Assembly: GCA_977017645.1 (NCBI GenBank)
Contig: OZ360220.1
Coordinates: 157,852,001 to 157,916,000, forward strand
DNA: 64,000 bases
Direction of reading: 5' to 3'
Source of the DNA: Torpedo marmorata
Lineage: Eukaryota
Shown here: positions 3,911-47,108 of the stretch, one piece after another
How the letters are laid out: each line of letters opens with the position of its first letter
How positions within the stretch are numbered: the stretch's first letter is position 1
Notes under the pieces: model-generated
Told to the model about the DNA's origin: nothing
What the model saw: the letters and a program-made list of their open reading frames with translations, nothing else
The model's database searches: none
Program-made: the position numbers and the translations under genes

Positions 3911-4741
3911 CAAGATGGCGGCGCTGCCGGAGCCGCTGTAACGGATCCGCGGGGAGCAAGGGAGCAGAGACGCAGCGCTCCCATGGGGTCCAGCCACCCA
4001 GTCGACTACCGTCGGCTCGCACGGGCTTTGAACGGCCCGTTGAGTGAGTCGACGGTGGTTTTGTTTGAGATCCCGCGACTGCGCCCAAGATGGCAGCGCC
4101 TATTAATCAGCAGCAGCCACGAGGGGCTGCAGACCCCGGGGAAGTGGAGGACTGGAGCAGGGCACCAGAGGACGGAAAGGTCACCCCCCTGTCTGAGATG
4201 GAGAAGCGGAGGAGAGGACCCACGGGATGGTGACCACGGCGGCGGACCAGTGAGGGGCTCTGAGGCTGAAGGACCAGTGCATGCGGCGGGCTGCTGGTGA
4301 CTCGAGGCAAGGAACCCACGGAGGCTGTGGGCTGCTGGATACTGCTGTCGGGAGACTCGTGCCGGGCTGCGGACTGCTGGAGACTGGCTCGAACTGGCTG
4401 GAGGAGTACCAGGTATCGGAACCGGGATGCGAGGGGGTGCCGAGGGCGCTGAAGGGTTCCTGACCGTGTCGGAGGTTCGGATCTGGAGCTCGGGTTGCCA
4501 ATGGTTTGGACTGGACTCTGTGTGGCTGCGGAGGCTGCGGAAGCTCTGGAGGCAAAACTACGGACACTCGGTGACTCTGGGGGGACTCTCTTTTGCTTCT
4601 CTTTCTCTGACTGTAAGGAATGTTAGAGGCGCTTAAGCAATTTCTGCCGGTGGCGAATCTGTCTGCCTTGCAGCAGGCAAAAAGAAATTTCATGTAATAT
4701 GACACTGTTTTATTACTATGACAATAAATTGAATCTTGAAT
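3911..4741 (+). mobile_element. ~0.8 kb GC-rich non-autonomous retroposon, copy 1
   Basis: Starts CAAGATGGCGGCG and ends ATGACAATAAATTGAATCTTGAAT. Closely similar to copies at 14587, 15956 and 27095. Confidence 0.9.
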
Positions 4742-5062
4742 TAGTATTCCTCCTCCTAGATGATGGTCATGTTAACGTTAATCTTATCTTTTACATATTT
4801 TTGTTTTCCAACACAATAAAATGTATGAGTTCTTTTCACTATATGTTTACATCCTCCAAACATTAGCTTGGATCGCAGTTGGCAATGAGGGACCAATTTG
4901 TTAGGCAGTAATTAGCACATGATTAAGAGCACAAGGCTGAGTACATTTAGTTTGTAAACTGAAAGTCCTCACAAGTTTACTGACTTTGCTGATCGTACCT
5001 CAGAAGGCTACCACAACACACCCTGTGGTGGGGCTGGGAATCACTGACAGCAACTCTAGTGT

Positions 5063-5515
5063 TCAGAATCAGAATCAGAATCAGAATTTATTGTCATGAA
5101 CAAGTCATGAAATTCGGTGTTTTGCGGCAGCATCATTGTGCAATTAACATTCATATTAATCATCTAACGACATTACTATAAAAAATTATAAACAATAGTG
5201 CACGAAAAGTAAGGCAGTGTCTTTGGTTCATTGATTATTCAGGAATCTGATGGCAGCGGGGAAGAAGCTGTCCTTGTGCCGTTGAGTGCTCAGCTTTAGG
5301 CTCCTGTACCTTTTTCCCGATGGAAGCAGAGTGAAGAGGGCATGGCCTGGGTGGTGGGGGCCTTTGAGGATAGAGGCTGCTTTTTTAAGACACCACCTCA
5401 TGTAGATGTCCTCGATGGAGTGAAGTTGGTGCCTGTGATGTCACAGGCCGAGTTAACAACCCTCTGGAGTTTACTCTTTTCCTGGGAGTTTGCGCCTCCA
5501 TACCAGGCAGTGTTT
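5063..5515 (-). mobile_element. Rex1/Babar-type LINE 3' fragment
   Basis: The - strand ends GAATTTCATG...ATGACAATAAA plus (TTCTGA)n. Body resembles the Rex1 C-terminal region (KDPHHPGHALFTLLPSGKRYR). Confidence 0.75.
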
Positions 5516-5548
5516 CCACATTTACCAGTATAAATGTGTGCTTCACAC

Positions 5549-8689: not shown

Positions 8690-11600
8690 ACCATCAACAA
8701 TAAGTAGACCGTTTTGGATACTGTTGGTGGGGACGACCTACCAAGGACAAGTTGTAGTGGTCACGTCTCTGGCACAGAGATTGGACCCTCAGCTCAGAAA
8801 GGAAGGAGGGAAAAGAGGAGAGCAGTAGTGATAGGGGATTCGATAGTTAGGGGGACAGATAAGAGGTTCTGTGGGAGAGATCGAGAATCCCGGATGGTCT
8901 GTTGCCTTCCTGGTGCCAGTGTCCGCGATATCTCGGATCGAGTTATCGGTATTCTCAGGAGGGAGGGTGAGCAGCCAGATGTCGTGGTCCATGTAGGGAC
9001 CAATGACATGGGTAGGAAGGATGAGGAGGTCCTGCAAAGAGAGTTTAGGGAGTTAGGTGCAAAGTTGAAGGACAGGACTTACAGGGTTGCGATCTCAGGA
9101 GTGCTACTCGTACCACGTGCTAGTGAGGCTAGAAATAGGAAGTTAATGCAGCTAAATACGTGGCTAAAGAGGGAGGGCTTCATGTTTCTGGACAGTTGGG
9201 CTCTGTTCCAGGGAAGGTGGGATCTGTTCCGACAGGACGGTTTGCACCTGAACTGGAGGGGACTAACATCCTTGCAGGTAGGTTTGCTAGTGCTGCACCA
9301 GGGGGTTTAAACTAGATCTGCAGGGGGATGGGAACGAGAGAGTTAGAGCAGATAGTGAGGTGGAGGATGATAAAGGTCATGCGAGGACTGCATGTATAGA
9401 CAGAAATCAAAGGTTTGTACGTGATAGAAATGTTCTCAGGTGTATTTATTTCAATGCAAGGAGTATTGTCAGAAAGGCAGACGAGCTTAGGGCGTGGATT
9501 GGCACGTGGGATTACGACATTATTGCTATTAGTGAGACTTGGTTGCAGGAGGGGCAGAACTGGCGGCTTAATGTTCCGGGGTTCTGTTGTTTCAGACGTG
9601 ATAGAGGGGGAGGGATGAAAGGGGGAGGAGTGGCATTGCTAGTCAGGGAAAATATCACAGCTGTGCTTAGACAGGACAGCCCAGAGGGCTCGTCTACAGA
9701 GGCCATATGGGTGGAGCTGAGGACGGGAAACATGTGACCACACTGATAGGGTTGTATTATTGACCACCCAATAGTCAGAGAGAATTGGAGGAGCAAATTT
9801 GTAGAGAGATAGCAGACCGATGTAAGAAACAGAGAATTGTGATAGTAGGAGATTTTAACTTTCCACATATTGACTGGGCTGGATGGCTTGGAGTTTGTCA
9901 AATGTGTTCAGGAAAGTTTTCTAAATCAATATATAGAGGTACCAACAAGAGAGAATGCAATACTTGATCTCCTATTAGGGAACCAGAAAGGTCAGGTGAC
10001 AGAAGTATATGTAGGCGGATATTTTGGGTCCAGTGACCATAATGTCATTAGTTTCAAGTTAATTATGGATAAGGATAGGTCTGGTCCTCGAGTTGAGATT
10101 CTAAATTGGAGAAAGACCAATTTTGTGGAAATTAGAAAGGATCTAGGAAGAGTGGATTGGGATAAGATGTTTTCAGGCAAGGATGCATTCAGTCAGGCCA
10201 ACAAAGGCAAAATTTCGAGAGTGCAAAGTTTGCATGTTCCTGTCAGGATTAAAGGCAAAGTTAACAGGCATAGGGAAACTTGGTTTTCAAGGGATATTGG
10301 CGATCTGGTTAAGAAGAAGAGACAGGAATAGGCAACAAGGAGCAAATGAGGTACTAGAAGAGTATAGAAAATGTAAGAAAATACTTTAGAAGGAAATCAG
10401 GAAGGCAAAAAAAAGACATGAGGTTGCTTTGGCAGATAATGTGAAGGTAAACCCGAAGGGTTTCTACAAGTATATTAAGAGTAAAAGGATAGTAAGGCAC
10501 AAAATTGGTCCCCTAGAAGATCAGTGGTCATCTTTGTGTGGAGCCTCAGGAGATGGGGGAGATCTTAAACAGTTTTTTTGCATCAATATTTACTCAGGAA
10601 ACTGGCATAGTGTATAAGGAAGGAAGGGAAACAAGCAGTAATGTCATGGAACATATAGAGATTAAAGAGGAGGAGGTGCTTGCTGCCTTACAGCGAATAA
10701 AGGTAGATAAATCCCCCGGGCCTGACATGATATTCCCTCGGACCTTGAGGGAGACTAGTGTAGAAATTGCAGGGGCCCTGGCAGAAATATTTAAAATGTC
10801 CTTAGCCACGGGTGAGGTGCTGGAGGATTGGAGGGTAGCTCATGTTGTTCCGTTGTTTAAAAAAGGCTCCAAAGTAAAGCAGGAAATTACAGGTCGGTGA
10901 TCCTGACGTCAGTAGTAGGTAAATTATTGGAGGGTGTTCTGAGAGATCGGATATACAAGTATTTGGACAGCCAAGGGCTGATTAAGGATAGTCAGCATGG
11001 CTTTGTGCATGGTAAGTCGTGTTTAACGAATCTTGTAGAGTTTTTCGAGGAGGTTACCAAGAAAGTAGATGAAGGAGAGGCTGTGGATGTTGTCTACATG
11101 GACTTCAGTAAGGCCTTTGACAAGGTCCCACATGGGAGGTTAGTTCAGAAGGTTCAGACACTAGATATCCATGGAGAGGTTGTAAACTGGATTTGAAATT
11201 GGCTGAATGGGAGAAGACAGAGAGTGGTAGTGAATGATGGCTTCTCAGACTGGAGGCCTGTGATTAGTGGTGTACCTCAGGGATCGGTGCTGGGACCATT
11301 GTTGTTTGTTGTCTATATCAATGATCTGGATGATAATATGGTAAATTGGATCAGCAGGTTTGCTGATGACACTAAGATTGGAGGCATTGTGGACAGCAAG
11401 GAAGGCTTTACAAACCTTGCAGAGGGAACTGGATCAACTGGAAAAATGGGCCAGAAAATGGCAGATGGAATTTAATGCAGACAAGTGTGAGGTGTTGCAT
11501 TTTGGAAGGACAAACCAAGGTAGGACATACACAGTTAATGGTAGGGCACTGAGGAGTGTGGAGGAACAAAGGGATCTGGGAATACAGATACATAATTCTC

Positions 11601-14586: not shown

Positions 14587-15417
14587 ATTCAAGATTCAAG
14601 ATTCAATTTATTGTCATAGCAATAAGACAGTGTCATATACCACAAAATTTCTTTTTGCCTGCTGCAAGGCAGACAGATTCGCCATCGGCAGAAATTGCCT
14701 AAGCGCCTCTAACATTCCTTACAGTCAGAGAAAGAGAAGCAAAAGAGAGTCCCCCCAGAGTCGCCTCCAGCGCTTCCGCAGCCACACAGAGTCCAGTCCA
14801 AACGATCGGCATCCCGAGCTCCAGATCCAAACCTCCAATACGGTCAGGTCGCCCTCGGCACCCCCTCACATCCCGGTTCCGATACCTGGTACTCCTCCAG
14901 CCAGTTCGAGCCAACCTCCAGCAGTCCGCAGCCCGTTGTGAGTCCCCCGTCAGCAGTCACCAGCAGCCCACAGCCTCCGCGGGTTCCTCGCCTCGAGTCG
15001 CCAGCAGCCCACCGCATGCACTGGTCCTTCAGCCTCAGAGCCCCTCACCGGTCCGCTGCTGTGCTCACCGTTCCGTGGGTCGTCTCCTCCGCTTCTCCTT
15101 CTCAGACGGGGGTGATCTTCCCGTCCACTGGTGCCCTGCTCCAGTCCCCCGCTTCCCCGGAGTCTGCAGCCCCTCGTGGCTGCTGCCGATTAATAGGCGC
15201 TGCCATCTTGGGCGCAGACCCCGCGGTCGCGGGATCTCAAATAAAACCACCGTCAGCTCCTTTAACGGGCTGTTCAAAGCCCGTGCGGAACCGACGGCAG
15301 TCGACTGGGCGGCTGGACCCCGCGGGAGCGCTGTATCTCCGCTCCCACGCTCCCCGCGTGTCCGCACCAGCGGCAGCGCTGCCGCTACAGCGGCTCCGGC
15401 AGCGCCGCCATCTTCAA
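14587..15417 (-). mobile_element. ~0.8 kb GC-rich non-autonomous retroposon, copy 2
   Basis: Reverse complement of copy 1. Its tail ends ~62 nt downstream of the exon donor at 14524. Possible short TSD ACATT (14585-14589 / 15419-15423). Confidence 0.9.
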
Positions 15418-15955
15418 CACATTTGACAGCTCATTGTCCTGTATTCTCGCAGATTGCACTAAAGCTAACATTGAAGGAGCAAAATTATCTCTATTATGGA
15501 TACATGATGATCGTTATTAAGTTTGATTAACTTGCATTTAACACCACAGTTACAACTTATTTGACCATGATCTATCCAACAAGCAAAGTCTAATTGTAAT
15601 TGTTAATGTCACCTAAGGCACATTAATTGATATAAAAATTATATTTCTTGATGAGGATATTAAGCCTGTTCTTGGAATCATTTAAATAAAATATGCGGTC
15701 TTTTTGTAGTGTAGGTATTGCAGTTAGAAAAAAAACACATTAAGGTTTATTGGTTTTAGTTATTAGTGTTTTCAGAAATGTTCTGAGAACATCCAATAAT
15801 GGAATATGCAACACAAGAGAACAGTAACAGGAGTAGGACTCTCAGTCCCTCTTGCCTGCCCTGTCAGTCAATGTTATCTTGGTGGATCTGACCCAGGCCT
15901 CATCTTTTATGTGCCATTTCCCCACTGCTGTCAATTCCCATAACTTTAGCAATGT

Positions 15956-16756
15956 AATGGCGGCGCTGCGTGGGAGCGGAGATACAGCGCTCCCGCGGGG
16001 TCCAGCCGCCCAGTTGACTGCCGTCGGTTCCGCACGGGCTTTAAAGGAGCCGATGGTGGTTTTATATAAGATCCCGCGACCACGGGGTCTGCGCCCAAGA
16101 TGGCAGCGCCTTTTAACCGGCAGCAGCCACGAGGGGCTGCAGATTCCGGGGAAGCGGAGGACTGGAGCAGGGCACCAGAGGACGGGAAGATCACCCCCAG
16201 TCTGAGAAGGAGAAGCGGAGGAGACGACCCACGGGACGGTGACCACGGCGGCGGACCGGTGAGGGGCTCTGAGTCTGAAGGACCAGTGCATGTGGCGGGC
16301 TGCTGGCGACTCGAGGCGAGGAACCCGCGGAGGCTATGGGCTGCTGGAGACTGCTGTCGGGGGACTCACGCTGGGCTGCGGACTGCTGGAGGTTGGCTCA
16401 AACTGGCTGGAGGAGTACCAGGTATCGGAACTGGGATGCGAGGGGGTGCCGAGGGCGACCTGACCATGTTGGAGGTTCGAATCTGGAGCTCGGGTTGCCG
16501 ATGGTTTGGACCGGACTCTGTGTGGCTGCGGAGGCTGCGGAGGCTGCGGAAGCGCTGGAGGCGAATCTACGGACACTCGGTGACTCTGGGGGGACTCTCT
16601 TTTGCTTCTCTTTCTCTGACTGTAAGGAATGTTAGAGGCGCTTAGGCAATTTCTGCCGGTGGCGAATCTGTCTGCCTTGCAGCAGGCAGAAAGAAATTTC
16701 ATGGAATATGACACTGTCTTATTACTATGACAATAAATTGAATCTTGAATCTTGAA
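15956..16756 (+). mobile_element. ~0.8 kb GC-rich non-autonomous retroposon, copy 3 (inserted in an old - strand CR1 tail remnant)
   Basis: ATGGCGGCGCTG head and GACAATAAATTGAATCTTGAATCTTGAA tail; three GGCTGCGGA units. Confidence 0.9.
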
Positions 16757-20049: not shown

Positions 20050-20146
20050 GTGAGTGGAATCTTATTATTTTCCCTGGAATTGAATGTTCATAAAATTCTT
20101 GTCAAATGAATAAACCCAAAGTTAAATTAGTTTCCATGTTAATGAA

Positions 20147-22420: not shown

Positions 22421-22779
22421 GAAATGTTTCAGCTTCTGTCTTTTAAGAATCCCTAAAAATTCTGAATGTGAATTGATTCACTTCACTTGATCATGGGATG
22501 GTGTATTATCAATATTACCTGGATATAGAGTCTATTTGTATAATTTGATTACATTGCACACCGTTCTTCTGGATTCTCCCAAGCCTGTATGACTGGTCTC
22601 CATCACGTGCTTTCTTGAGTTCGTTGCTAGGGAGAACATGTGCAGGTGCTTTAGTGAATTGCACTGAATGATGTTCTTTGCTTACCTGTGTTTTGGTCTC
22701 TGCTGCTTTCAGAGTTGGTGGGGGTTGGGGTTTAGGGGCAAGGCAATGGTGGGTAGAGATAGGGTGGAACGCAACAATA

Positions 22780-26229: not shown

Positions 26230-26250
26230 GAATCATCAATCTGTTCATAG

Positions 26251-26322: not shown

Positions 26323-26520
26323 GTAAGTAAATGGTTTTAATATGGCTTGGGAACTTTGTTCATCTATTGATTTACTGAAACCAGTCTCTGAAAAACAGAT
26401 GAATGAGGAGTTGATATTCACTAAAATATATCATATTGAAATATCTGCACAGTTAAGTGTTAGTGAGTGGAGAATACAAATTGAACAGGAGTATCTTCAA
26501 AGGTCAGCCTCAAGTCAATT

Positions 26521-29500
26521 AACATAGAACACTACAGCACAATACCGGCCCTTTGGCCCTCGATGTTGTGCCGACGCATATATTCCTTAAAAACAAAATA
26601 CAAAACCCTCCCTACCCCATAGCCCTCTATTTTCCTTCCATCCATGTGCCTGTCTAAGAGTCTCTTAAATGCCCCTAATGTTTCAGCCTCCACCACCATC
26701 CCTGGCAAGGCATTCCAGGCACCCACAACTATCTTTGTAAAAAACTTACCCCTGATGTCTCCCCTAAACGTCCCTCCCTTGACTTTGTACCTATGTCCTC
26801 TGGTATTTGCTATTCTGGCCCTAAGAAAAAGGCTCTGGCTGTCCACCCTATCAATGCCTCTCATAATCTTGTAGACCTCTATTAAGTCTCCTCTCATCCT
26901 TCTATGCTCCAAAGAGAAAAGTCCAAGCTCTGCTAACCTTGCCTCATAAGACTTATTTTCCATCCAGGCAACATCCTGGTAAATCTCCTCTGCACCCTCT
27001 CCATAGCTTCCACATCCTTCCTATAATGAGGTGACCAGAACTGAACACAATACTTTTAAGTGTGGTCTCACCAGAGATTTGTAGAGTTGCAACAAGATTC
27101 AAGATTCAATTTATTGTCACAGCAATAAGACAGTGTCATATACCACGAAATTTCTTTTTGCCTGCTGCAAGGCAGACAGATTCGCCATCGGCAGAAACCG
27201 CCTAAGCGCCTCTAACATTCCTTACAGTCAGAGAAAGAGAAGCAAAAGAGAGTCCCCCAGAGTCTCCGAGTGTCCATAGATTCGCCTCCAGCGCTTCCGC
27301 AGCCACACAGAGTCCAGTCCAAACGATCGGCATCCCGAGCTCCAGATCCGAACCTCCAACACGGTCAGGTCGCCCTCGGCACCCCCTCACATCCCGGTTC
27401 CGATACCTGGTACTCCTCCAGCCAGTTCAAGCCAACCTCCAGCAGTCCGCAGCCTGTCGTGAGTCCCCCGACAGCAGTCTCCAGCAGCCCACAGCCTCCG
27501 CAGGTTCCTCGCCTCGAGTCACCAGCAGCCCGCCGCATGCACTGGTCCTTCAGCCTCAGAGCCCCTCACCGGTCCGCCGCTGTGCTCACCGTCCCGTGGG
27601 TCGTCTCCTCCGCTTCTCCTTCTCAGACGGGGGTGATCTTCCCGTCCACTGGTGCCCTGCTCCAGTCCTCCGCTTCCCCGGAGGCTGCAGCCCTTCGTGG
27701 CTGCTGCCGATTAATAGGCGCTGCCATCTTGGGCGCAGACCCCGCGGTCGCGGGATCTCAAATGAAACCACCGTCGGCTCCTTTAACGGGCCGTTCAAAG
27801 CCCGTGCGGAACCGTGGGCGGCTGGACCCTGCGGGAGTGCTGTATCTCTGCTCCCCGCGGGTCCGCACCAGTGGCAGCGCTGCCGCTACAGCGGCTCCGG
27901 CAGCGCCGCCATCTTCAGTGACCTCTCTACTCCTGAACTCAATCCCCCTATTAATGAAGCCCAACATCCCATAGACCTTCTTAACTATCCTATCAACCTG
28001 CACGGCAACCCTGAGGGATGTATGGATTTGGACCCCAAGGTCCTTCTGTTCATCCACATTCTTAAGTAACCGACCATTAACCCTGTACTCAGCCTTCTGG
28101 TTTGTCCTTCCAAAATGCATCACCTCATACTTATCCGGATTGAACTCCATCTGCCACTTTTCCTCCCAACTCTGCATCCTGTCTATATTCTTTTGTAACC
28201 TACGACAACCTTCAGCATCATCCACAACTCCTTCAACCTTCGTATCATCCGCAAACTTACTGACCCATCCTTCCGCCTCTTCATCTAGGTCATTTATAAC
28301 GATCACAAAGAGCAGGGGTCCCAGAACAGATCCTTGTGGAACACCATGAGTCACTGACCTCCAGGCAGAATACTTTCCTTCCACTCTACTCTCTGCTTTC
28401 TACATGCAAGACAATTTTTTATCCACACAGCCAAGGTTCCATGGACCCCATGCCTCATGACTTTGTGTACATGGGGAATCTTGTCAAATGCCTTACTAAA
28501 ATCCATATAGACCACATCTACTGCCCTACCCTCACAATTACCTTTGTTATCTCCTCAAAAAACTCAGTTAGGCTCGTGGGGCACAACCTTCCCTTCACAA
28601 AGCCATGCTGACTCCTTGAGTAGACTGTCTTTCTCCAAATGCTCATAGATCCTATCCTTAAGAATCCTCTCCAATAGTTTGCACAACACTGATGTAAGAC
28701 TCACCGGTCTATAATTCCCAGGATTCTCCCTATTACCTTTTTTAAACAAGGGGACCACATTTGCCATTTTCCAATTCTCCGACACCTCCCGTATGGCCAA
28801 AGAGTACTCAAAGATCATGGCCACTGCACAAGCTATCTCTTCCCTCACTTCCCACAGCAACCTGGGGTATATCGCGTCCAGCCCCAGGGACTTATCAATC
28901 TTGATGTTTTTAAGAAGATCCAACTCTTCCTATTCCTTAATCTCAACATTGTCCAGCACACAAGCCTGTTCTATTCTGACCTCACCCTGATCCAAGTCCT
29001 TTTCTCTTGTGAATACTGAAGCAAAATATTAATTTAGGACCTCCCCATCTCCTCCACCTCCAGGCACACGTTGCCTCCTTTATCCTTTAGCAGCCCCACC
29101 TTCATTCTCGTCATCCTTCTGTTCTTCACATATGCATAGAACACCTTGGAGTTCCCTTTAATCCTACATGCCAAGCCCTTCTCATGCCCCCTTCGACCTC
29201 TCAAAAGTCCTTTCTTAAGCTCCTTCCTGGCTAACATATACTTCTCATGAGCCGTTCCTGTTTCCTGCTTCCTATATCTAATATATGCTTCCTTCTTCCT
29301 CTTGACTAGCTGCCTCACCTGTTTCGTCAACCACGGTTCCGTTTGCCTACCATCTTTTCCCTGTCCCACTGGGACAAACCTATCCTGAACCCAGCACAAG
29401 TGGTCCCTAAACTTCCTGCACGTTAGTCTGTACTTTCACCTTTGAACATCTGTTTCCAATTTACTCTCGCTAGTTCCTGCCTCATACCATCGTAATTAGC

Positions 29501-31754: not shown

Positions 31755-32085
31755 AATAAGCAACAAGTAAGATCTGAAGACCAGAACCTCAAGGTTCAAG
31801 AACAATTTCTTTCCAACAGCTATCAGGCTCTTGAACCTTCCCTTGTTACACTAATCAGGGACTACTCTGACACCACAAAAGGACTGTCTGCACTATTGTA
31901 ATGCCACTTTTTTTTTTACACTGGTAATTGTGAATATTTATTATCTATTTTTGTATTTATTATCTCTTTTTAATTTAATGTACGCTATTGTAGTTTGTTT
32001 TTTCCTTTACGAAGTACCTGTTCGGCTGCATCAAGTAAGAATTTTAGTGCAGACGTACATTGAACAATGCACATGACAATAAACA
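31755..32085 (+). mobile_element. Rex1-type LINE 3' tail fragment
   Basis: AGGTTCAAGAACAATTTCTTTCCAACAGCTATCAGGCTCTTGAAC ... ATGACAATAAA. Confidence 0.7.
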
Positions 32086-33492
32086 TTATCATGAATAATT
32101 TATAAAATATGAGGAGTATTTCTACAGGCATAGGCAATGTGATGAGATGAGAGTTTGTTGTCATTCATTCAGGTACAATGTACAGATTCACTGAAATTCT
32201 CTTTGCAGCTAAATGTACAGGTACATAAAACACACTCATTAACAAAAGGTATAAATCAAGTTACCACATGAGAGGAAAAAAGATAATACATATAAAAGGA
32301 TAGGAAAATAACAGATACAGTTAGTGCAAAAAATGTGATGTTACTATAGTGCAGACAGATCTTTGGTCCTGGAGTAGTTTTCTGGTTAGGGAAATTTTAT
32401 ATATTCACGAAAGGTTTTGGGTGAATGAAAAAGACAACCTTCCCTGATTAAGGCATCAATGCTGAGAAATCATTCAATTTAAGAGGGAGGAGAAATGCTA
32501 AGAAAATATATCTTGTATCTGAAGTTGATGGAGTTAAGACCACTGGACTGTTTGAGAGAAAGAATAAATAACTGTTTGAAGCCGAAAGTATGTTGTCCCA
32601 AAAAATAGCCCCTACAAACACAACAGCCTGAACACATTTCACTCTCATTCTGTGAAATTGGCTTGATATCAAAATTACTGTCTCCTGGGTGGCCAACTGG
32701 TGAAGATATAACAAGATTTCTTCCAGGATTCCCCAGAAGAGCTTTTCTGTCCCTACTGGGGCTGAGAGTCCAGGTGACCTGAGAAGTTGACAAAGGAGTG
32801 GTACTTGTGAAAACAAGATGTAAAAGATCTCCAGGGACCATTACTGACCTTGTTTACAAACTTCTCTGCTGAATTTAGTTAAGTCACTGCACCAGTGATC
32901 CAGATTATTAGAGAATATAGAAATGGAAGGCAGTGTCAGAAGTAATAAGCCCCTGGAAACCACTACACAAGCTGGTATTGCAGCAAATGTGTTTATCGTG
33001 AGACAGTTGAGAATCATTATAAAGATACTGTGGACCCTACTGGGCCATTTACATTGTGAATTAGCTAAGAACTTGCTTCTATATGTTTCAACCTTCAATG
33101 CTCCCACAGGCTGAAACTTCATTGTTGTGCATTCTAAGGCTAAGAATTTTTTTGCAGACTATTTCTTTCATATTTATTTCTACACCTAATTCACTTTTCT
33201 TTTGCAAGATATTTTAGACAAATTTAGTAAAAGTAGAAATATTTCAGTGCTTTTAATTTCAACTGTGCTTCAGCCTAATGTCTGATTCTAATCAGTGCAT
33301 AAGTATGAGCAATGTATTCGTTTTCAGAAATTCATAGTTCTTCCTATGAACTTTCTGCTCCTCGTATTCTCTGTTAATGGGTTGTATCAAAATAGCAGAA
33401 ATAAAAATGGTTTAATAGGGAGGTTTGTATCTATTGGAAGTAGATGAAGTATGCTGAGAGGTTTTAACTTGAATTCTCTTCTGCACTGCTAG

Positions 33493-34438: not shown

Positions 34439-35281
34439 TAAAAAACACAAATGCTGGAGAAACTCAGCAGGTCAAACAGTGTCTTTTATGTAGCAAAGGT
34501 AGAAATACATAACCGACGTTTCGGGCTTGAGCCCTTCATCAAAGTATGAGAAAATGCCGGCAGGCATCCGAACAAAAGAGTGAAGGGGGGAAGGGGGGGG
34601 TGGCAAAGGCAGGAGATGCTAGGTGGAGAAAGGAGGGAGGGGACAGCAGCAAAGAGGGGGAGGAGGGGTGGCTGGGTGGGTGGAAAAAAACTGGAAGGAC
34701 AGGTGAGGGGGGAGGGGAAGGAAAAGACAAGCAGGTTTAGTGGAAAGCAGAAAAGTCAATGTTAATGCCATCTGGCTGGAGAGTGCCCAGACGAAAAATG
34801 AGATGTTGTTCCTCCAATCTGCGGGTAGTCTGGGTGGGATAGTACATAAGGCCATGGACAGACATGTGAATGTGGGAGTGTGACTCGGAATTGAAATGGC
34901 TGGCTACTGGGAGGTCGCTGTTGTTGCGGACGGAGAGGAGGTGCTCAGCAAAGCGATCTCCCAATCTATGACCGGTCTCTCCGATGTAGGGAAAGCCACA
35001 AAGGGAGCACCGGATGCAGTAAATAAGTTCTCTGGATGTACAAGTGAAGTGTAGCTTCACTTGAAAGGCCTGTTTGGGGCCCCGGACTGTGGTGAGGGGG
35101 GAGGTGTGGGCGCAGGTGTTGCACCTCCTGCGGGCACAGGGGAAGGTGCCGGGGGTGCGATGGGTGGGGAGGGATAAGTGCACGAGGGAATCGCGGAGGG
35201 AGCGGTCCCTGCAGAAGGCCGAGAGGGGAGGAGAAGGAAAAATGTGTCTGGTGGTGGGATCCTGTAGTAAGTGCCGGAAAT
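34439..35281 (-). mobile_element. Penelope-like retroelement (Neptune-type GIY-YIG endonuclease fragment + 3' pLTR), 5'-truncated, 15-bp TSD
   Basis: ORF 34737-35183: PGTFPCARRRCNTC...LIYCIRCSLCGFPYIGET...RFAEH...VASHF...RLEEQHLIFRLGTLQPDGIN. TATATTTGGAAATGG is duplicated at 34424-34438 and 35282-35296. Confidence 0.92.
34505..34550 (-). ncRNA. Minimal type-I hammerhead ribozyme-like motif in PLE terminal repeat
   Basis: - strand reads CATACT-TTGATGA-A-GGGC(TCAA)GCCC-GAAAC-GTC-GGTTATG. Core has U instead of C3 and a palindromic ACGT helix III. Activity untested. Confidence 0.6.
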
Positions 35282-36029: not shown

Positions 36030-36900
36030 AAATGGTCTCAACTCCTCTCATTGAGGATGACTCTCATGCTCCACTTCTGTGGGTGATGAGGCCACTGTGG
36101 GAACTGGACTCTCTCAGATGGAGAAGGAGGTGTTGGAGGAGATGAGCAGATGGTGCAGTCCTCTTGCCAGTCACAGGGCTCCTTTGTGCTTCTCATACAC
36201 AGACCAGTGCTTCTGGGTTCTCCTTTGCCACTTTCAATGGCCGTGGACTTGAGATTCTCAAGAGTCAGTGGAGGTGTTGCATCTTTTCAAGGAGGCTTAA
36301 AGAAATTACATGAATCTTTTCCTCTGTTGTCCTGGTAATGTTGTCCTGTGTCAGAGCTCAGACTAGACTGCCTGTTTCAGGATTATGGTGTCGGCAAGTG
36401 AACAATGCATCCTGCCCAGTGGAGCCGACAAACAGTAATTAGGGCCTCATTGCTGGGTATTTTGGCATGGGAGCAAATGTGGAGGATCATCCAGGAGGGC
36501 AGGGATCACAAATACCCAGTAAATCAAGTTTGAGATCCACATTTCACATACTCTTTTATGTGTCAGCCAAGGCCTTGGTGCACTGAAAGTGATGGACTGA
36601 CTCTATGTTCATCTCCACTCTTGCTAGGAAGTGAATTTGAAAATATGGGAAGTTAATCATGTTTACCAGCCCCTTGTCTTCAACCTTCATTTTCAGAGAG
36701 CAATATGGTGTAATGGCAACAGGTTGTACAGGGCCTTTGTCTTTTGGAACTTTGAGTACAAGCTTCAACCTCTCAAACACTCTATGAATGATTAACAACA
36801 ACTTGGATCTGGTCTCTTACACGTACTGAAGTAGGGGTGACCTTGGTCCTCCAGCGTTGTCGCCATAGGTTGAACAGTTTCTCATTAGTCCTGCAGATTA
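36030..36900 (-). mobile_element. Old RTE-clade LINE fragment
   Basis: Decayed post-RT motif (V..INFPY..I...HHFQC) and an L.WAG..V-like region on the - strand; heavily degenerate. Confidence 0.5.
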
Positions 36901-38245: not shown

Positions 38246-38934
38246 GTATGCAGTGACTCCTTTGATTCTGCACCTCAATGCATCTAACTATAGTGATGTG
38301 TGTCCACAAAGGTGGGCTTTCTTTTTATTGGGTGCTTCTGTTTGGTTTTTGTTACTGAAGACTAAATGAAGTAATTCCTTTCAAATAATTCCTCACAAAT
38401 ATTCTTCACTGTCAAGACCTCTTTTCTTTTCCTTTGAGATTGTCACAGCTTTTTACTTTGTGACCCAGACTTTCTCCCCCTTGTCAGATTTATGCTCATC
38501 TCCTCCAACACCTCCTTCTCCATCTGAGAGAGTCCAGTTCAGGACATTATCTGATGTTGCTATTTAAAAATTCAAGCTGATATTTGTGGGGATGGTATGA
38601 CATAAAACCTGCTTCACAAATCTGTTTTATAGATTCCACTTTGGAATGGCCAATTTAAAATCCCAGTTAGTAACTCATGTGATTGTGGAGAAGGTCTTGT
38701 TAACACTGAGCCATTTTCACTGGTGTTGTATCTGAAGTTAACAGTTACAGTAGAAATAACTCAGATTGAATCTGGAGGAATTTTTGCCCCACTAGCAAGG
38801 GCAGCATTTATCTCCAATTGGATGTGAGAAAATGTAAGTGTTCAAGTATAATAAAAATGCTTCCACTATCCTGTTAGGTACCAAGTTCTAGAATTTGAAA
38901 GGATATTTTCATATTCTTTCATTTACATCATTTG

Positions 38935-39489: not shown

Positions 39490-40342
39490 CTACTAACAAC
39501 AACCTCGCACTCAATGTCACCAAAACCAAGGAGCTGATTGTAGACTTCAGGAAGGGAAAACCAGTGGTGTACGATCCAGTTATCATTGTGGGATAAGAGG
39601 TGGAGAGGGAGATCAAATTTAAATTCCAGGAAGTCATTATCGCCGAGAACATTTACTGCACCCTACTAATGTCATCATGAAGAAAGCACGTCTGCGCCTC
39701 TACTTCCTCAGGAGTTTGCGGAGGTTCGGTATGACATCGAAAACCTTGGCAAACTTCTACAGATGTATGGTGGAAAGTGTGCTGACCAGCTGCATCACAG
39801 TCTGGAATGGGGGCAACAATACTGAACGGAAAGGTAGCGGACACATCACAGGCAAAACTCACCCCACCATCGAGAAAATCTACGTGGAACGTTCCTATCG
39901 GAGATCGATACCAGCCAGGATTGCCCTGTTCTACCTTTGCTACATAAAAGACACTGTTTGACCTGCTGAGTTTCTCCAGCATTTGTGTTTTTTACATGCC
40001 CTGTTCTTGCTACTGCCATCAGGAAAGAGGTATAGGTGCCACAAGACTTGTACAATCAAGTTCAGGAACAGTTGCTACCCCTCCACCGTCAGACTCTTAA
40101 ACAACAGACTCAAACAGAGTCTCACTTAAGGACTCTTACTTTGCACATTATTTATGACTGAATATTTTTTTCTCTGTATTTGCACAGTCAGTTTGTATAC
40201 ATTTCCTTCTTATTTACATTTCTCTCTTTTGTATACGTATTTTTTCTTGAGCATAGTTTACAATATCAATAAATAGAAAATCGGCCTGGCCCGCAGGAAA
40301 AAGAATCTCAGAGTTGTATGTGATGTCATGTATGTACTCTGA
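39490..40342 (+). mobile_element. Rex1/Babar-type LINE fragment containing a small PLE insertion
   Basis: Highly similar to 2480-3287; tail GACAATAAAACTTGAACTTGAA. Confidence 0.85.
39933..39996 (+). mobile_element. 64-bp extreme 3' end of the Penelope-like element, with 11-bp TSD
   Basis: Reverse complement of ~34439-34500. TGCCCTGTTCT occurs at 39922-39932 and 39997-40007. Confidence 0.85.
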
Positions 40343-43300
40343 CAATAAAACTTGAACTTGAAACGGTTCCATGTCGCTTCTGCCTCATGAGGTGTAGATG
40401 ATGTGATGTCAGAATGTGACACCTGCCGCAGAATACCCAGTCTTTGACCGAGAGAGAGCAGGCCAGCTCCACAACACGCCCTTTGATCTGCGGTTAGAGT
40501 GAAACGCTTAATGTTATTCATTGGTGGAAAATCAAGCAGAGGTGATGCCATTATTTTCAAAGGAAAGAAACGGTGTTCTCCTCTTTAATACTGTAATTAC
40601 CTGACTCCTGCATGCTGAAAATGTGATTTGCCAAGTCTAGTTCTTGCAGCATGCAGCCACTGACTCCTTCGCAATCTGAGAATTTCGCACCAGTGTGTTA
40701 AAAGATGTCTGTATTTGTATTATAGCGGGCATTTTCTTTTTTACTTAAAAATAATGCATAATTTTCTACGTGGAGAATCCTAAAAAACCAGGCAACGGCT
40801 GACAAAGTTCTCCTAGGGCTGTAGGCAAAATGTGTCGGGTTTGAAAACTAGAGTGCTGCAGGTTCAACGGGGACTTCATTCACTCCATGTAAAAATAGCT
40901 CTTGCAACAGGAATGTGAAGATCAGTGTGACCTATTAACCAGAAGGAGTTTTAATTGTTGGGGGTGTGTGGAAAGAGAGTGGAGCTTTATGGCCTGAAGT
41001 AGATAGTTTAATTTATCTGGGGCAGGCTATTGGAAGCAGCATCAGCAACCATCATTTATACCAAGCCGTTAACATCTTTCCTCATTATCGACAGTCTATG
41101 TATTTTCTGCTTTTATTCCAGATGTCCAATGTTTGCTGTTTTGTGCTTTTAAACTATTGCTTATTGTTAGTTCCCAGTTAAGCTGCGAGGTGAGAGATGC
41201 TACATGGTTAACCGTGAATACGGGTTGTTGGACTGCAGTGGAGGAAACTTCCATTTGAATGTGATGATGATTTAATTTCCTAATGTGGGAACTTTTTGGC
41301 ATCCATCGTACATTTAGGCTGCAGTCAATTAAACATTTAACACACTTCTGGTTCTGCATTCATTTAGTTTTTCCCAACGTCTGTCCTCCACAAGAATCAA
41401 CATATTTTCTATTGCACATTTTACATGCTTTGAGTGTTATTTACAGAAGTCAGCCATTATTCATTATTGTGAGAAATAAAAAATATCATTTACTTTTACA
41501 ATAGATTTGTTTAACAAGGAATCTTCAATGCAAAGTCAAAGAAATCTGGACTATTTTATCTAAACTGGTCAGGCGATCTTATAATGATAAAATAAACCAC
41601 ATGGAAAAATCCCCCAAACTATTGAACGTGAAAGTAGGTTTAATATTTCCGACATATATAGTTCTATCTTCACAGCTTTTTCTTGCCCTCCTTCCCCTTC
41701 CCTCTTTCATGGATCCTTGTGTACAGGAGACATATGATGGGGTCAAATCACAAGAAACTCTCATATCAGTTTAATCAATTTACTTAGCATTATAAATTTG
41801 GCTAACAAAGAAAAATGAAAATGGATTAAAAGAAACAAAATGTGAATCCTGCAAAGTGAAATAATGTAGAATTCTTTGTGCACCATCTAGCTGGTGTATT
41901 ACAAATATAGATTAGTGAGATCAATTGGATGATAATTGTTGGATTTCTCATATCTTGGTAGCATTTCAGTTTTGTGCACTTTCTGCATAATACCCTTTCT
42001 GATGTATACAGAATAACTGCAGTTATTGCTACATTCATGTGCTGTCTAGATTCTAGTGTCTACTAACAAATGACCTAATTCATTTAGCTTTATATATCAT
42101 AATAATCTGAAGAAAAGTTAATTTACTCATTATTGGTCCTTGTCTTGAAGCGAACCAAATCAATGGAGTGAAAAGTTAGTGTTATGCCTTGGCTACTCAG
42201 GTTGTTGTGCAAGCTTTTTATTGGAACCTATTATTTATGCAGATACAATCCCTACAATCTACAGTTAAAGAAGTGCTTAGTAGCTGTTTCAAGTGGCATG
42301 TACATTATCCTTCCTGCCTGTGAGCCATTGAAATGCTGGAGTCTTTCCTTTCAGTACTTGTGTAAAAATTGATCTTAATGGAAATTTAGAATCATCAAAT
42401 TCTGAAAGACTCATTAGTTTTGCATTCATTTAGTTTTGCCCATTGTCTGTCCACTCAAATTAACAACATTTCTATTGCAGTTTCCTCTGCTTTGAACATT
42501 ATTTACAGAATTCAGCTATTAAGAATGGGAAATTAAACTTTTGAATTTCTCTCCCTCCCAATGCAAATGATTTAAATCATGGCAGTTGAAACTCCGGAGC
42601 TTGTAGATGTAATGTTTGCCAAATGAAGGTGCTGATCGATGAAGCTAAATTCTGAAAATAATTAATTTACTGTGTAAGGATTTGCTTATTAGCATAATCA
42701 AAGCTGCGATATAAAGAGCTTACAAAAGTCACCAAGAATAAGAGGTGAGAACAGCTGCTGATGTAACCACTCAAGTTAGGATCAAGGGGTGAAGCTGCCG
42801 GTACTTGGGGTAAAAAAGGATTATGTAATTACTGCATCCATAGTTTGACATAAAATATTTTTCTCAAAAATTGTTCTACTGTGAAATAACTTCATTACAA
42901 CAAAATAATTCAAACTTAAGTGTTTCAAACTTTCTTGTTATAAGGTTCAATACTTTAAACTATTCTTTTCAACAATTATTTTGTTGTTAGAATGCAAAAT
43001 ACATTATTTTTCCAAGCTTGGTGTGCATTGTAATTCATTTGGTTCCTTAAACTAAATTTTCTACGTGTGCATGATGATTCCTCATTAATTGTTCATCGTT
43101 AATAATGTGTAATGCAGGACAAAGTGTATTAGCGTCTTATATTATAAAATATTCAATATAGTAAAAAAAACTACAATTAAGGAAATAATGCAAGCCTCTT
43201 CTAAAATAAAGATTATGCAATTCAATTGATTCATTATTTACTAGTCGTATATCTTGATTAGTGATAACAGAGAGAAATTGCACTTAATCTGCCTTTGACT

Positions 43301-45269
43301 GGAACTGAAGTTGGCTTCGCAGATGTGTGTTTGTGGGTTTGTGTGCATTGAAGCATTTTTCGCTTTAGTTTGTTAATTGCATACTAGTCTAGCAGTGAGC
43401 TGCAGTTACCTTTGCATTCATTTATTCCATGCAAGGCACGACAGAAAATGAGACCTATATACTTAAAACTGCGAGCCACTGGAATACTTCACACAGTCGG
43501 ATAGATGAAGGGCCTTTAGTCGGAATGGGGGGCAAAAATTGAAGGTCACTAATTTGCTTTCTTATGATGAGTTCGTATTGTTTGAATTGAATTAATTATT
43601 GTCATCTGTGCCATCCAAAGCTTTTTACTGGTTGATACTTATTCACATTTTTATTTAACATTTAATTTGCTGGCTGCTATGAAATATAAAATGTAGTATT
43701 CATGTGAAAGTGCAGGAGTAGAAATCAAATTTGTATTAAAAATGATGTGGCTTTATATCATCAAATTTCTTGAAGCCAATACATGTGTTAGTGCTACTGA
43801 AAGGTGTAACTTTATAAGATGCAAATCAGATCCTATAAGTAGCAGTGGATATACAAGCAGAAAAATCTGACCACAAAATATTTTCTCAATGCACAATTGC
43901 TTAGTTTATTAGAAGCTGAAGACAGTAGTTATAATATTTTAAAGCTTTTCTATGCAGATGATGAGACAAGCTGTTTTTCATCATTTGTCAACTGCTTAAC
44001 ACATCTGCCAATGTTATTGTGGTTTGCACAGGCAAGATAGAATTTTAAAAATGCATGCATGCGGATTAGGGTCAAGCCCTGTGTTTTTCTAATACAGTAG
44101 GTTCGCTGATACAACTGCAGAAGTAGATCTAACCAACAGCGGTGAGATGCCTTAATTGAGACATGCTGTCAAAGTGACAAACACATTTGCATATAGTCTA
44201 TTTATTTTTGCTGTAATGGCCTGCAGTTTGCTGTTGGTTGAACATTCTTAATCAGCCTGCTCTAGCGAGCCTGCTGAAAGCTGTCCTCTATACTGTACTC
44301 TTCTACATTGCCTGACAGTTTGTCTAAACAGGGAAGGAACAGAAAGCTGATTTTTTTTTGCTATTGCTTTTGCCATTTTCGTATTCAATCAGCGGGCACA
44401 TTTATAATCCAAATGCCAGCGGACTTGTTTGCTTGGATAGAGCACATGAAGTAGAAAAGCATTTACACAGACAACCAAAAACTGTTCAAAATGCTCTCCA
44501 TTCTGCAGATCTGTCACATATTATGATCTGAATATCAATATCCTTTGAAAATTAGACTTTGCTCTTCAAAAAATGACTAGTTTCAAAGAAGAAAATGGGT
44601 GCCAGCAGATCAGGAAATCAGAGCCCTGCACTCTTGGCATTTGACTCTGTACAAAGTCCATGCAGGTTTTCAAAAATTTGCATTATCCAGATATCTTGAA
44701 AAAATCAGGATATTGCTATTCAATTTTAGAGTCATAATTGTGTCTTAATAATATTCACAAACTGCTACTTGGCTGTAATAATTACATTATCTGAAATTCA
44801 GAATTTTTTCAGATGACTTCAGTAACTCTGCAGAATTCCTTACCCAAGCATAAAATGATTCCAATTATCTTTAGTATTTAATTCTTTGCCTGCTGGTCAA
44901 TCCCCAGCTGAATTTTACCTGGAAATTTTAAAACTTTAGGTAATATTACTGGATGTCATTAAGACCATGGGTGATTTTCACATCCAATATTTCAAAAAAA
45001 TTATATAGTTCATGGGGGATATTCATTCTATAGTGACAAAGTCTAGAGCACCAACTGAATATAATCTTCCTTAAGTGCTGTTCTGTTGCCTTGCATCGAG
45101 AGGCAAAAATTGACCTGCCTCAATGTTAATTATATAAGCTTTGCTTCTGTGAGAGAATACTGAGGAAGCTTTCTTTTTACGAAGAAAATATGGAAGGATG
45201 TTATTTTGACCAAATTTAATTCTCCAGCTGTGTCAACCACTCTCCTAACATATCAACATACTTACTACA

Positions 45270-46120
45270 ATGCAAATGGAGGCTCTTCAGCCCATTGAAT
45301 CCATCCCAGCTTCTTGTAGAGCCATTCCCCTCACTTTATTCCCATGTAGCCCTGCAGCTTGTTCTCTTTCTCATGCCTGTCAGCTCCTGTTTTTTGATTC
45401 TTTTGCCACTTGCCTAATCTAAAGTGCAATTTACAGTAGCCAGTTAACCAGCCAGCCTAGCTTCTGGACATGGAATGAAAGCAGGGAACCTGGAGGAACT
45501 CCATTCTATTATGTTGAAAACACACCAAGCCCACACAGACACCAGAGGTTGAACGTTGATACAATGGCCAAAAAAATGCACCAGTACTTCTCCTTCCTCA
45601 AAAGCCTGAGGAAATTGGCATGACTGCAGGTGCACCATTGAAAGTATTCTGTCAGGGTGCATCACTGTGTGGTACAGCAACTGCTCCGTCAAGCCCACAA
45701 GAAACTGCAGAAGGTTGTAAATGTGGTTTAGTCTATCATACACACCCGCACCCCCCTCCACCGACTGCATCTACAACTCCCACTGCTTTGAAAAAGCAGC
45801 CAACATATTAAGAAACTCATCCCACCCTGCCACCTTCTCTTCACCCCCCTCTCATTAGGAAGAAGATTCACAAGTGTGAGATCACGCACCATTAGATACA
45901 AGGACAGTTTCTTTCCCACTGTTATCAGACTCCTGAATGAATGCCGAAATAGTAAAATGTTGCCTTTGCTACGTACCAACTGATCTCTTACTATAACTTT
46001 GCAATTCTATTTTTTACTATGTCTTCCTTGTATTATGTATGAGATGTCTAATGGTATGTTCACAAAACAACCTCCATCGCTGTATTTTCTATACTCGTGT
46101 CAATAAACTTGAACTTGAAC
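45270..46120. mobile_element. Old V-SINE (- strand, ~45270-45545) followed by a Rex1-type 3' fragment (+, ~45560-46120)
   Basis: GAGGCTCTTCAGCCCATTG SINE tail; Rex1 GCITVWYSNC motif and CAATAAACTTGAACTTGAAC tail. Confidence 0.65.
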
Positions 46121-46351
46121 CAGCTTCTGTGATCCCATTGCTCCTGCCTGGAAACAACACATTCTTCTGCCAATGGTGCACTGATGCCCTTCTGGAAATT
46201 CAACTGATGTTGTGAACTGAGGAGTTCTCTGCTTGCTACTGCTGTTGAAGTGTTTCATTGGTCTCAGTAGTTATCTTGTCCAATTACCTACAGTCTGCTC
46301 ACTAACTTCCCACAGCAAAACCAGTTTAGTATTAACTGCATGCCTTCTAAC

Positions 46352-47108
46352 CAGATCAGATCAGATACTATTTATTGTCATGTAATAAAACAGAAATGTA
46401 ATATTGCATGAAATTGCCTTTAGTCTGCCATAAGGCAGACAAAGAGTCACCATGAGCATTGCCTGGCGCACCTTACACTCAGAGAAAAACCTGAGTTGCC
46501 GAGTGTCTGAGAATTCGCCTGCAGCTCTCCCACAGCCTCTGCAGCCTCACAAGACTCCAGTTCAAACCCTTGGCAATCCATGGCCAGATCCAAATCTCCA
46601 ACATGATGAGGAAGCCTTTAGCGCCCAGGGTCCCTCGGGAGCCCTTCTTGCCCTCAGCATCCTCTCAAATCCAGTTTCAGTCTCCAGCAGCTCGGTGTGA
46701 GTCTTTTGACCTCAAGTCACCAGCAGTCCACAGCATATGTGGGTTCCTCAACCGCAAGTCGCCAACAGCCCGCTGTGTGTGCCCTTCAGCCGCAGAGCCC
46801 CTCGCTGGTCTGCCACCGTGGTCACCATCCTTAGGGTCGTTTCCTCTGCTTCTCCTCAATGGGAGGTGTTTTCCCCTTTACTGGTGCCCTGTGCCAGTCC
46901 GTTGCTCCCCTGGAGTCTGCAACCCCTCAAGGCCGCTGCTGAACACAGATGCCGCCATCTTGGGCCCAGACCCCTCATTCGCAGGCTGTTTAAAGCCTAT
47001 ACAGAGCCGTCGGCAGTTGGACTGGGTGGTGGGACCCCACGGAGGAGCACTGTGTCTCTGCTCCCCGCTCTCTCCAGATTGGCATCAGTGGCAGCGCTGC
47101 CATGTTTT
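46352..47108 (-). mobile_element. Diverged subfamily copy (copy 5) of the ~0.8 kb non-autonomous retroposon
   Basis: Collinear with copies 1-4: AACATGGCAGCGCTGCC head, internal CCCAAGATGGCGGC, ATGACAATAAA, but a (TCTGA)n tail. Confidence 0.8.

What the first reader, a model, noticed from the sequence alone, without database searches (positions are those of the whole stretch)
3911..47108. A ~0.8 kb GC-rich, non-tRNA, non-coding retroposon family that appears to parasitise Rex1/Babar LINEs
Seen: five copies (3911-4741 +, 14587-15417 -, 15956-16756 +, 27095-27918 -, diverged 46352-47108 -). All begin within a few bases of the same (A)AGATGGCG/AACATGGC motif, and a second CCAAGATGGC follows ~140-190 nt downstream, whereas most LINE copies here are 5'-truncated. 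No tRNA, 5S or 7SL head is visible. The 3' end has a stem-loop (TCTGCCT-tgcagc-AGGCAGA in copy 3; GTCTGCC-N4-GGCAGAC in copy 5, stem kept and loop changed), then AATTTCATG...ATGACAATAAA and short tandem repeats. Rex1-type LINE tails in this window share that layout (3205-3287, 5063-5130, 40280-40342). Known: AAGATGGCG is the YY1 core, and LINE RTs recognise 3' stem-loops shared with partner SINEs. Inference: a Pol II-type, internally promoted, bipartite non-autonomous element with at least two subfamilies, mobilised by Rex1 RT. Whether it is already catalogued cannot be judged from the sequence.
Basis: partly seen in the sequence, partly recalled or inferred. Interest (0 to 1): 0.7.

Follow-up and report, generated by a model that had tools for sequence, protein, structure and literature searches.

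The report
Protein-free passenger of Rex1 retrotransposons
This fish genome carries tens of thousands of copies of a 0.84-kb non-coding jumping element that has no tRNA- or 5S-type promoter, starts at the same short motif as full-length Rex1-type retrotransposons and ends in a similar predicted double hairpin, so it likely borrows their copying enzyme and is likely transcribed from a Rex1-like internal promoter.

Summary
The family is real. It has at least 27,636 copies in this 6.2-Gb genome (about 60,000 young copies by sampling), several subfamilies, and relatives in other organisms' runs. It behaves as a non-LTR retroposon: fixed 3' end, ragged 5' truncations, a short-repeat tail, no fixed target duplication, no coding homology, and no Rfam or tRNA head. 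Of 69 copies picked by their tail, 36 start within bases 1-5, at (A/G)ATGGCG. Full-length copies of two Rex1-type LINE families start at the same motif. The tail is about 70% alike to two LINE families and shares their predicted hairpins. A 5S-headed SINE shares the last ~115 nt. Pol II transcription and the partner family are inferred. Dfam and Repbase could not be searched. The scan noted a similar element in another genome. Verdict: new variant of a known kind.

The parts
3912..4741 (+). Copy 1, full length, 87% to the young consensus
3912..3945 (+). Head: AAGATGGCGGCG start, YY1-like by recall. Same first motif as LINE families A and B; first ~30 nt resemble the family D head
4085..4094 (+). 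Second CCAAGATGGC motif (consensus position 205); not used as a 5' end in 69 copies
4613..4741 (+). 3' module of about 115-130 nt, shared with a 5S-headed SINE family elsewhere in the genome
4660..4679 (+).
4690..4721 (+). Predicted terminal hairpin H3 (TCATG...ATGA) closing just before CAATAAA; same position and closure as in LINE families A and B
4722..4741 (+). CAATAAA followed by short tandem repeats (TTGAATC), variable in number among copies
14591..15415 (-). Copy 2, full length, 96% to the young consensus
15954..16753 (+). Copy 3, GTAATGG head variant with a deletion of about 50 nt after the head, 92%
27094..27916 (-). Copy 4, full length, 96%, inserted into an RT-coding LINE (26511-29610, CR1-type by recall); an uninterrupted copy at 20135-22422 shows no target duplication
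46352..47108 (-). Copy 5, older subfamily, 79% to the old consensus, with a (ATCTG)n-type tail
1941..3286 (+). 5'-truncated Rex1-type LINE of family A; its tail is one of the two best matches to the element's tail
5063..5512 (-). 3' fragment of Rex1-type family B, the most abundant tail counted (48,342); terminal hairpin only
39492..40363 (+). Older family-A-like LINE fragment with a two-hairpin tail
31953..32099 (+). Tail of an old Rex1-type family E, the other best match to the element's tail

Best explanation
It is a high-copy, non-coding 0.84-kb retroposon with a defined 5' start at (A/G)ATGGCG and a Rex1-type 3' end, likely transcribed from an internal Pol II-type promoter like that of Rex1 LINEs and likely copied in trans by a Rex1 endonuclease/reverse transcriptase that would recognise the predicted terminal hairpin, CAATAAA and the short repeats. 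Shown: copy number, anatomy, the pile-up of 5' ends, the start motif shared with full-length LINEs, tail similarity, and insertion into copies of families A and B. Inferred: RNA intermediate by target-primed reverse transcription, the polymerase, YY1 binding, and which family supplies the enzyme. Family A is the best tail match; family B is the most abundant, and four young copies sit inside family B copies, so they are at least as recent. The 700-nt GC-rich body has no identified source.
For: 27,636 exact tail 30-mers against 0 for the control pattern. 0 of 69 tail-anchored copies continue upstream into a LINE ORF. All 30 head-anchored copies run on to the 3' region, 29 of 30 without a large deletion. 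5' ends: 40 of 69 at base <=12, 10 at 13-50, 3 at 51-190 and 16 beyond 230. No target duplication above control (mean shared word 4.6 against 4.3, n=25); 7 insertions in known hosts show 2-8 nt overlaps or one 24-nt deletion. LINE heads: family A consensus AAAATGGCGCC (15 of 30 loci reach it), family B AA(A/G)ATGGCGCC (13 of 24). The tail without the shared GACAATAAA aligns to family A (score 36, 2/1000 shuffles) and family E (35.5, 1/1000), higher than any LINE-LINE pair (20-28). A profile trained only on three family E tails finds element tails at E from 5e-6. Terminal hairpin: 93.7% of cells paired, 5 of 14 pairs changed on both sides, and picked independently by RNAalifold; the same closure folds in 5 of 5 family A and 4 of 4 family B tails. 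No tRNA, 5S or 7SL match, no A or B box by pattern, and internal T4+ runs at 169, 690 and 787 that would stop Pol III. Truncation rate equals that of family B.
Against: Tail identity to any LINE is only about 70% over 50-80 nt, whereas paired SINE/LINE tails are described as nearly identical (PMC3747384, passage). The old-subfamily consensus tail does not match A or E significantly (65/1000 and 526/1000) and matches B only marginally (47/1000). A profile of the element's 3' module finds no LINE better than E=0.63 in 600 kb. The terminal hairpin is not the favoured fold in most family C and D tails or in the young consensus with the TTTTGTG variant, and some stem variation may be CpG decay. The AAG is missing in about half of the full-length copies. 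Family D starts GTGGGCGG, without the motif. The heads of families C and E were never reached. No transcript start was observed.
Confidence: 0.7

Rival explanations
1. Internal-deletion (bipartite) derivative of a Rex1 family with a long GC-rich 5' UTR that is now extinct, rare or unsampled; the whole 0.84 kb would be 5' UTR plus 3' end.
For: The shared start motif, and the resemblance of the first 30 nt to the family D head (0/1000 locally, 18/1000 against the whole element). Gappy alignments to the B and D 5' regions beat global shuffles. Heads of families C and E are unseen.
Against: The sampled 5' regions are 0.3-0.5 kb long and their profiles miss the element. The gappy scores (49.5 and 52.5) are matched by a reversed-sequence control (53.5). 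0 of 30 head-anchored loci lead to an ORF.
Confidence: 0.15
2. Composite built on a minimal Rex1: the last ~115 nt would be a fused LINE head and tail, later given either a 5S head (the SINE) or a GC-rich extension holding two more head-like units (this family). This refines the best explanation rather than excluding it.
For: The 5S SINE joins exactly at the module start. The old module shares GGCGACTCTTTG with the family B head (14/1000) and aligns to the family A head (18/1000); 7 of 13 module copies reach p<0.05 against the A head. Family A carries the same TTCTGC/GCAG(A/G)A stem at head and tail, a possible template-switch point. The same design is published for RTE (PMC4844689).
Against: The tests were chosen after seeing the data, there were 18 of them, and the copies are not independent. 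The young consensus is not significant at the module (about 100/1000), and the three 5S SINE copies tested are not significant against the A head. No free-standing module family was seen; truncation points (696-760) do not cluster at 713.
Confidence: 0.3
3. Retrocopies of a cellular CpG-island lncRNA or UTR 'master gene' that captured a Rex1 tail, with copies not serving as sources themselves.
For: The body is GC- and CpG-rich, of unknown origin, and starts with a motif common in housekeeping promoters (recalled).
Against: Several nested subfamilies differ by 15-27% with diagnostic indels and two head variants, which implies successive source elements. There are no poly(A) tails.
Confidence: 0.07
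4. Mobilised by another LINE clade (CR1/Zenon, L2, L1), or not a retroposon at all (solo LTR, DNA transposon, coding element).
For: CR1-type and L1-type LINEs are abundant in the window. The young consensus has a 281-codon stop-free antisense frame (4-10 of 500 local shuffles).
Against: There is no poly(A), no TG..CA ends, no terminal inverted repeat and no internal region. The antisense frame is absent from the old consensus (6 stops per frame) and has no Pfam hit. GACAATAAA plus repeats marks RT-linked Rex1-type tails here.
Confidence: 0.08

Closest known systems
ORF-less bipartite non-autonomous LINEs (RIME, NARTc, Bov-A, RTESINE1/2, WALLSI3, Vingi-1_EE and R2 derivatives; Kojima 2018, PMC5786205: part 1 of 5, section 23 and passages read)
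   Same: Non-coding, LINE-like start and LINE-like end, no small-RNA head, presumed Pol II transcription.
   Different: That paper reports only the RTE, Ingi, Vingi and R2 clades, and the word Rex1 does not occur in it. Here the parent is not recognisable beyond about 10-30 nt of head and 50-80 nt of tail.
BuceSINE and ManaSINE2, bird SINEs with GC-rich heads (Suh 2016, PMC4844689, passages; also PMC7245038, passages)
   Same: A GC-rich head of unknown origin on a LINE-derived tail that sister SINEs with 5S or tRNA heads also use.
   Different: They have an RTE partner with a clear bipartite tail. This element has a Rex1-type tail and begins with the LINE's own start motif.
SINEs with Rex1-type or RSg-1 tails: SINE2-5_NV with Rex1-24_NV; salmonid HpaI, SlmI and OS-SINE1 with RSg-1 (PMC3747384 table passage; RSg-1 as Rex1 clade is recalled)
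   Same: Parasitism of a Rex1-type tail is known. The 5S-headed sister family found here matches this kind.
   Different: Those have tRNA or 5S heads for Pol III; this element has none.
Human L1 5' UTR YY1 site (PMC7778262, passages)
   Same: A YY1-type motif near the 5' end of a non-LTR element, needed in L1 for accurate initiation.
   Different: Here the motif is at the very first bases and is often clipped or altered (GTAATGG); binding is untested.

Membership tests
Non-autonomous non-LTR retroposon | Fixed 3' end with variable 5' truncation and a short-repeat tail | tested here: met
   69 tail-anchored copies: 19 start beyond base 50; repeat number varies
Non-autonomous non-LTR retroposon | No coding capacity for RT or endonuclease | tested here: met
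   No Pfam hit in 8 element frames; longest sense ATG ORF is 57 aa in the young consensus
Classical SINE (SINE1/2/3/U) | Head derived from tRNA, 5S, 7SL or snRNA, with a Pol III promoter | tested here: not met
   ARAGORN 0, Rfam 0, no A/B box pattern, internal T4+ runs. The same Rfam search does detect the sister SINE's 5S head (51 bits)
Bipartite non-autonomous LINE | 5' part homologous to the 5' end of an autonomous LINE | tested here: inconclusive
   Shared start motif with A and B and a 30-nt resemblance to D, but no profile hit for the body; C and E heads not reached
Bipartite non-autonomous LINE | 3' part homologous to the 3' end of the same LINE | tested here: inconclusive
   About 70% to families A and E; the best head matches are B and D, so no single parent
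Bipartite non-autonomous LINE | Pol II transcription from the LINE promoter | not testable with these tools
   No raw RNA reads were listed
Rex1-dependent element (stringent 3' recognition) | 3' stem-loop and terminal repeats shared with the LINE | tested here: met
   Two-hairpin layout in the element and family A; terminal hairpin also in B. These are predicted folds
Rex1-dependent element (stringent 3' recognition) | Mobilisation in trans by a Rex1 ORF | not testable with these tools
   Needs a cell assay
Rex1/Babar clade (for LINE families A-E) | Single APE-RT ORF grouping with named Rex1 elements | tested here: inconclusive
   Closest relatives of family A are teleost RT + PF09004 proteins, mostly at 50-66%; none is named Rex1, so the label is recalled and no tree was built
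An already catalogued Dfam/Repbase family | Full-length match to a library consensus | not testable with these tools
   No repeat library is held
Solo LTR or DNA transposon | TG..CA ends or terminal inverted repeats with a fixed-length target duplication | tested here: not met

The most novel reading that the evidence does not exclude
Rex1 LINEs have spawned a minimal head-plus-tail cassette of about 115 nt, by a template switch between twin hairpins at their two ends. In rays and their relatives this cassette became a shared chassis for both a Pol III (5S-headed) SINE and a Pol II, YY1-initiated 0.84-kb SINE-like family built from repeated Rex1 heads, whose young tail has drifted toward the active partner. 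That would add Rex1 as a fifth clade making ORF-less non-autonomous LINEs and give a natural side-by-side test of Pol II against Pol III SINE design on one tail.
Probability: 0.25. Interest if true: 0.68.

Novelty: new variant of a known kind. Interest (0 to 1): 0.46.

Why it matters
The superfamily fills about 1.5% of 600 kb of blind samples, so it is a real component of a very large fish genome and scatters CpG-rich, promoter-like DNA. A 2018 survey left open whether the restriction of ORF-less non-autonomous LINEs to four clades is sampling bias (PMC5786205, section 23); a Rex1-dependent case bears on that. The comparison also gives defined 5' ends for three Rex1-type families and a candidate terminal recognition hairpin, both directly testable. 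It remains a transposable-element variant, with no evidence of a host function.

Tried and rejected
Ribozyme or small-RNA head: no Rfam match. Target-site duplication: none above control. Coding role: the antisense open frame is not kept in the old consensus and has no Pfam match. Homology of the body to LINE 5' regions: gappy alignments not upheld by profiles or by a reversed control. Second motif as an alternative start: 0 of 69. Unusual resistance to truncation: rejected against family B. Heads of families C and E: the four longest candidates were truncated or belonged to family B. Expression: no RNA holder listed; run X5 is RNA only by guess, is held as contigs, and no control stretch was laid on it, so its high depth is not used. 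Literature: ten full-text searches listed no description of this family or of a non-autonomous Rex1 derivative; only the top 20 of 43 hits, 20 of 65, 20 of 37, 15 of 20 and 8 of 9 were shown. No supplements were read; consensus libraries in supplements or in Repbase/Dfam could hold the family.
Full report
Observation. The five copies exist as described. Four belong to a young subfamily (87-96% to its consensus) and copy 5 to an older one. They are GC-rich in a 43% GC window. Copy 4 interrupts an RT-coding LINE whose uninterrupted copies in the window show no target duplication. The genome is 6.2 Gb. I infer a cartilaginous fish, probably a ray, from its size and its Rex1 load; rays have among the highest Rex1 coverage in a 101-species survey (PMC13343379, passages). 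This was not tested further.

Copy number and spread. One exact 30-mer of the young tail occurs 27,636 times, and the reversed control 0 times. Twelve blind 50-kb blocks hold 6 young copies, 11 older ones and 4 copies of a 5S-headed SINE. That suggests roughly 60,000 young copies, with wide error, and about 1.5% of the sampled DNA. Contigs from runs of four other organism labels cover the element and drop at both of its ends, so the family is not confined to this species.

Retroposon signature. I took the first 69 tail matches on contig C1, so the sample is unbiased for 5' ends. Of these, 36 start at consensus bases 1-5, 40 at <=12, 10 at 13-50, 3 at 51-190, none at the second motif and 16 beyond 230. 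None runs upstream into a LINE ORF; nearby LINE hits are hosts or neighbours. All 30 loci taken by the AAG head run on to the 3' region about 820 nt later, one with an internal deletion. Two head variants exist, TGAAGATGG and GCGTAATGG or GGAAATGG. Only 1,765 loci carry the exact AAG 29-mer, which is CpG-rich and decays. There is no target duplication beyond chance; seven insertions in known hosts show overlaps of 2-8 nt or one deletion.

The truncation argument. Over the same length, family B LINEs reach 790 nt in 20 of 30 copies against 50 of 69 for the element (p=0.63); the older family A does so in 14 of 30 (p=0.02). A short template explains most of the contrast. What remains informative is the sharp pile-up at one start.

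No small-RNA head, no protein. ARAGORN and Rfam are blank. There is no A or B box by pattern, and T4+ runs lie inside the unit. Sense frames are no longer than in shuffles. One antisense frame is open over the whole young consensus (0/300 global and 4-10/500 local shuffles), but it is closed in the old consensus and has no Pfam match. I treat it as incidental.

The LINEs. Five RT-linked families, A-E, end in GACAATAAA or a close variant followed by short repeats. Exact tail counts are 48,342 (B), 23,447 (A), 8,488 (C) and 2,539 (E); the patterns differ, so these are lower bounds and not strictly comparable. Family A's closest proteins are teleost RT + PF09004 proteins. The name Rex1/Babar is recalled and not confirmed by a tree. 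Full-length 5' ends were reached for three families: A begins AAAATGGCGCCGG (15 of 30 loci), B begins AA(A/G)ATGGCGCCTT (13 of 24) and D begins GTGGGCGGCGCG (23 of 30). The element therefore starts at the same motif as A and B. Its first 30 nt also resemble the D head (0/1000 locally, 18/1000 against the whole element; one of 18 local tests). The body has no profile-level match to any of the three 5' regions, and the gappy pairwise scores are equalled by a reversed control. Heads of C and E were not reached.

The tail. Excluding the shared GACAATAAA, the young tail aligns to A (2/1000) and E (1/1000) at about 70%, better than the LINE families align to each other. It does not align to B, C or D, and the old consensus is marginal at best. 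A profile trained on three E tails alone finds element tails, whereas a profile of the element's module finds no LINE better than E=0.63. Folding gives the element and family A one layout: a hairpin, an A-rich linker, a long hairpin closed by UCA...UGA, CAAUAAA, then repeats. Over 25 diverse modules the terminal hairpin is 93.7% paired with five two-sided changes, and RNAalifold picks it alone. The structure was drawn from these sequences and relatedness inflates the counts, so this is support and not proof. The terminal hairpin folds in all A and B tails tested but in few C and D tails.

Timing. Young copies sit inside A (2 cases), B (4) and a CR1-type LINE (1). A family A tail sits inside an old-subfamily copy, and an old copy sits inside C. 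The old subfamily thus overlaps or predates A activity, and the young one is at least as recent as those B copies.

A shared module. A SINE with a 5S rRNA head (Rfam 51 bits) carries the same last ~115 nt, joined directly behind the 5S part. The old module begins with sequence resembling the A and B heads (18 and 14/1000), and family A has the same short stem at both ends. This suggests a minimal head-plus-tail cassette, but the tests were post hoc, and the young consensus and the three 5S copies tested against the A head do not pass.

Mechanism. The most likely course is as follows. A genomic copy is transcribed from an internal promoter at its first bases, as inferred for Rex1 itself. The RNA presents a Rex1-type terminal hairpin and repeats. 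A Rex1 protein nicks DNA and primes reverse transcription, giving full-length copies about 70% of the time because the template is short. The sequence anatomy is shown; the polymerase, YY1, the partner and the recognition element are inferred.

Comparison with what is known. ORF-less non-autonomous LINEs are reported only from RTE, Ingi, Vingi and R2 (PMC5786205, section 23). GC-rich-headed SINEs sharing a tail with 5S- and tRNA-headed sisters are known for AviRTE (PMC4844689, passages; PMC7245038, passages). Rex1-type tails are known on Pol III SINEs (PMC3747384, table passage). YY1 sets the L1 start (PMC7778262, passages). PMC6274825 (passages) added nothing on non-autonomous Rex1. The element works like the first two kinds; it fails the classical SINE test and is inconclusive for the bipartite test. 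Ten searches listed no description of it, but the repeat databases could not be searched and such an abundant family is likely present in automated libraries. Earlier notes of this scan describe a similar element in another genome and the 5S SINE in this one; I read them after reaching these results and they are not independent support.

Verdict. A real, abundant, probably Rex1-dependent non-coding retroposon without a Pol III head: new variant of a known kind, interest 0.46.

Noticed in passing
L159:7529-7780 (+); also L013, L144, L182, L045, L005, L030, L188, L317, L334, L337: A young SINE of about 240 nt with a 5S rRNA head and the same ~115-nt 3' module as the element, ending in (ACCTTT)n; 4 copies in 600 kb of blind samples.
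   Followed up: partly
Family A LINE heads (L114-L139) and tails (window 3205-3225): The same short stem TTCTGC/GCAG(A/G)A occurs near both the 5' and the 3' end of the LINE.
   Followed up: partly
L019:6480-6590 (+): A unit of about 100 nt with a Rex1-like head motif directly followed by a Rex1-like tail; only one copy seen, though its tail type recurs on other repeats.
   Followed up: partly
L096, L109, L275 (element) and L224 (family B LINE): Short duplications of the first bases at the 5' junction, in both the element and a LINE, suggesting a shared way of finishing the 5' end.
   Followed up: no
window 14591-15415 and the young consensus: One antisense frame is stop-free over all 281 codons of the young consensus; not kept in the old subfamily, no Pfam match.
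   Followed up: yes
young versus old consensus tail: Several changes from the old to the young tail (GCAGA to GCAGG, AAAAGGCAA to AAAAAGAA) move it toward the family A tail, which could be adaptation to a partner or chance.
   Followed up: no
window 34438-34504 with 39929-39995, and 36101-36148 with 38493-38540: Two nested perfect inverted repeats (67 and 48 nt, 100%), one arm inside a family-A-like LINE fragment; possibly an inversion or a templated repair scar.
   Followed up: no
window 51033-54104: A short gypsy-type LTR element (two ~390-nt repeats, 90% alike) with capsid-like, RNase H and integrase matches but no RT match in the frames scanned.
   Followed up: no
window 1-1940 and 8708-9310: The 3' end of a poly(A)-tailed L1-like element directly abuts the family A fragment; a GDSL-esterase frame typical of CR1-group ORF1 lies at 8708-9310.
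   Followed up: no
L037, about 5100-5300 (- strand): Tandem AAGATGGC/AAAATGGC motifs in an unrelated gypsy-like stretch, showing that the motif alone is not specific to Rex1-linked elements.
   Followed up: no
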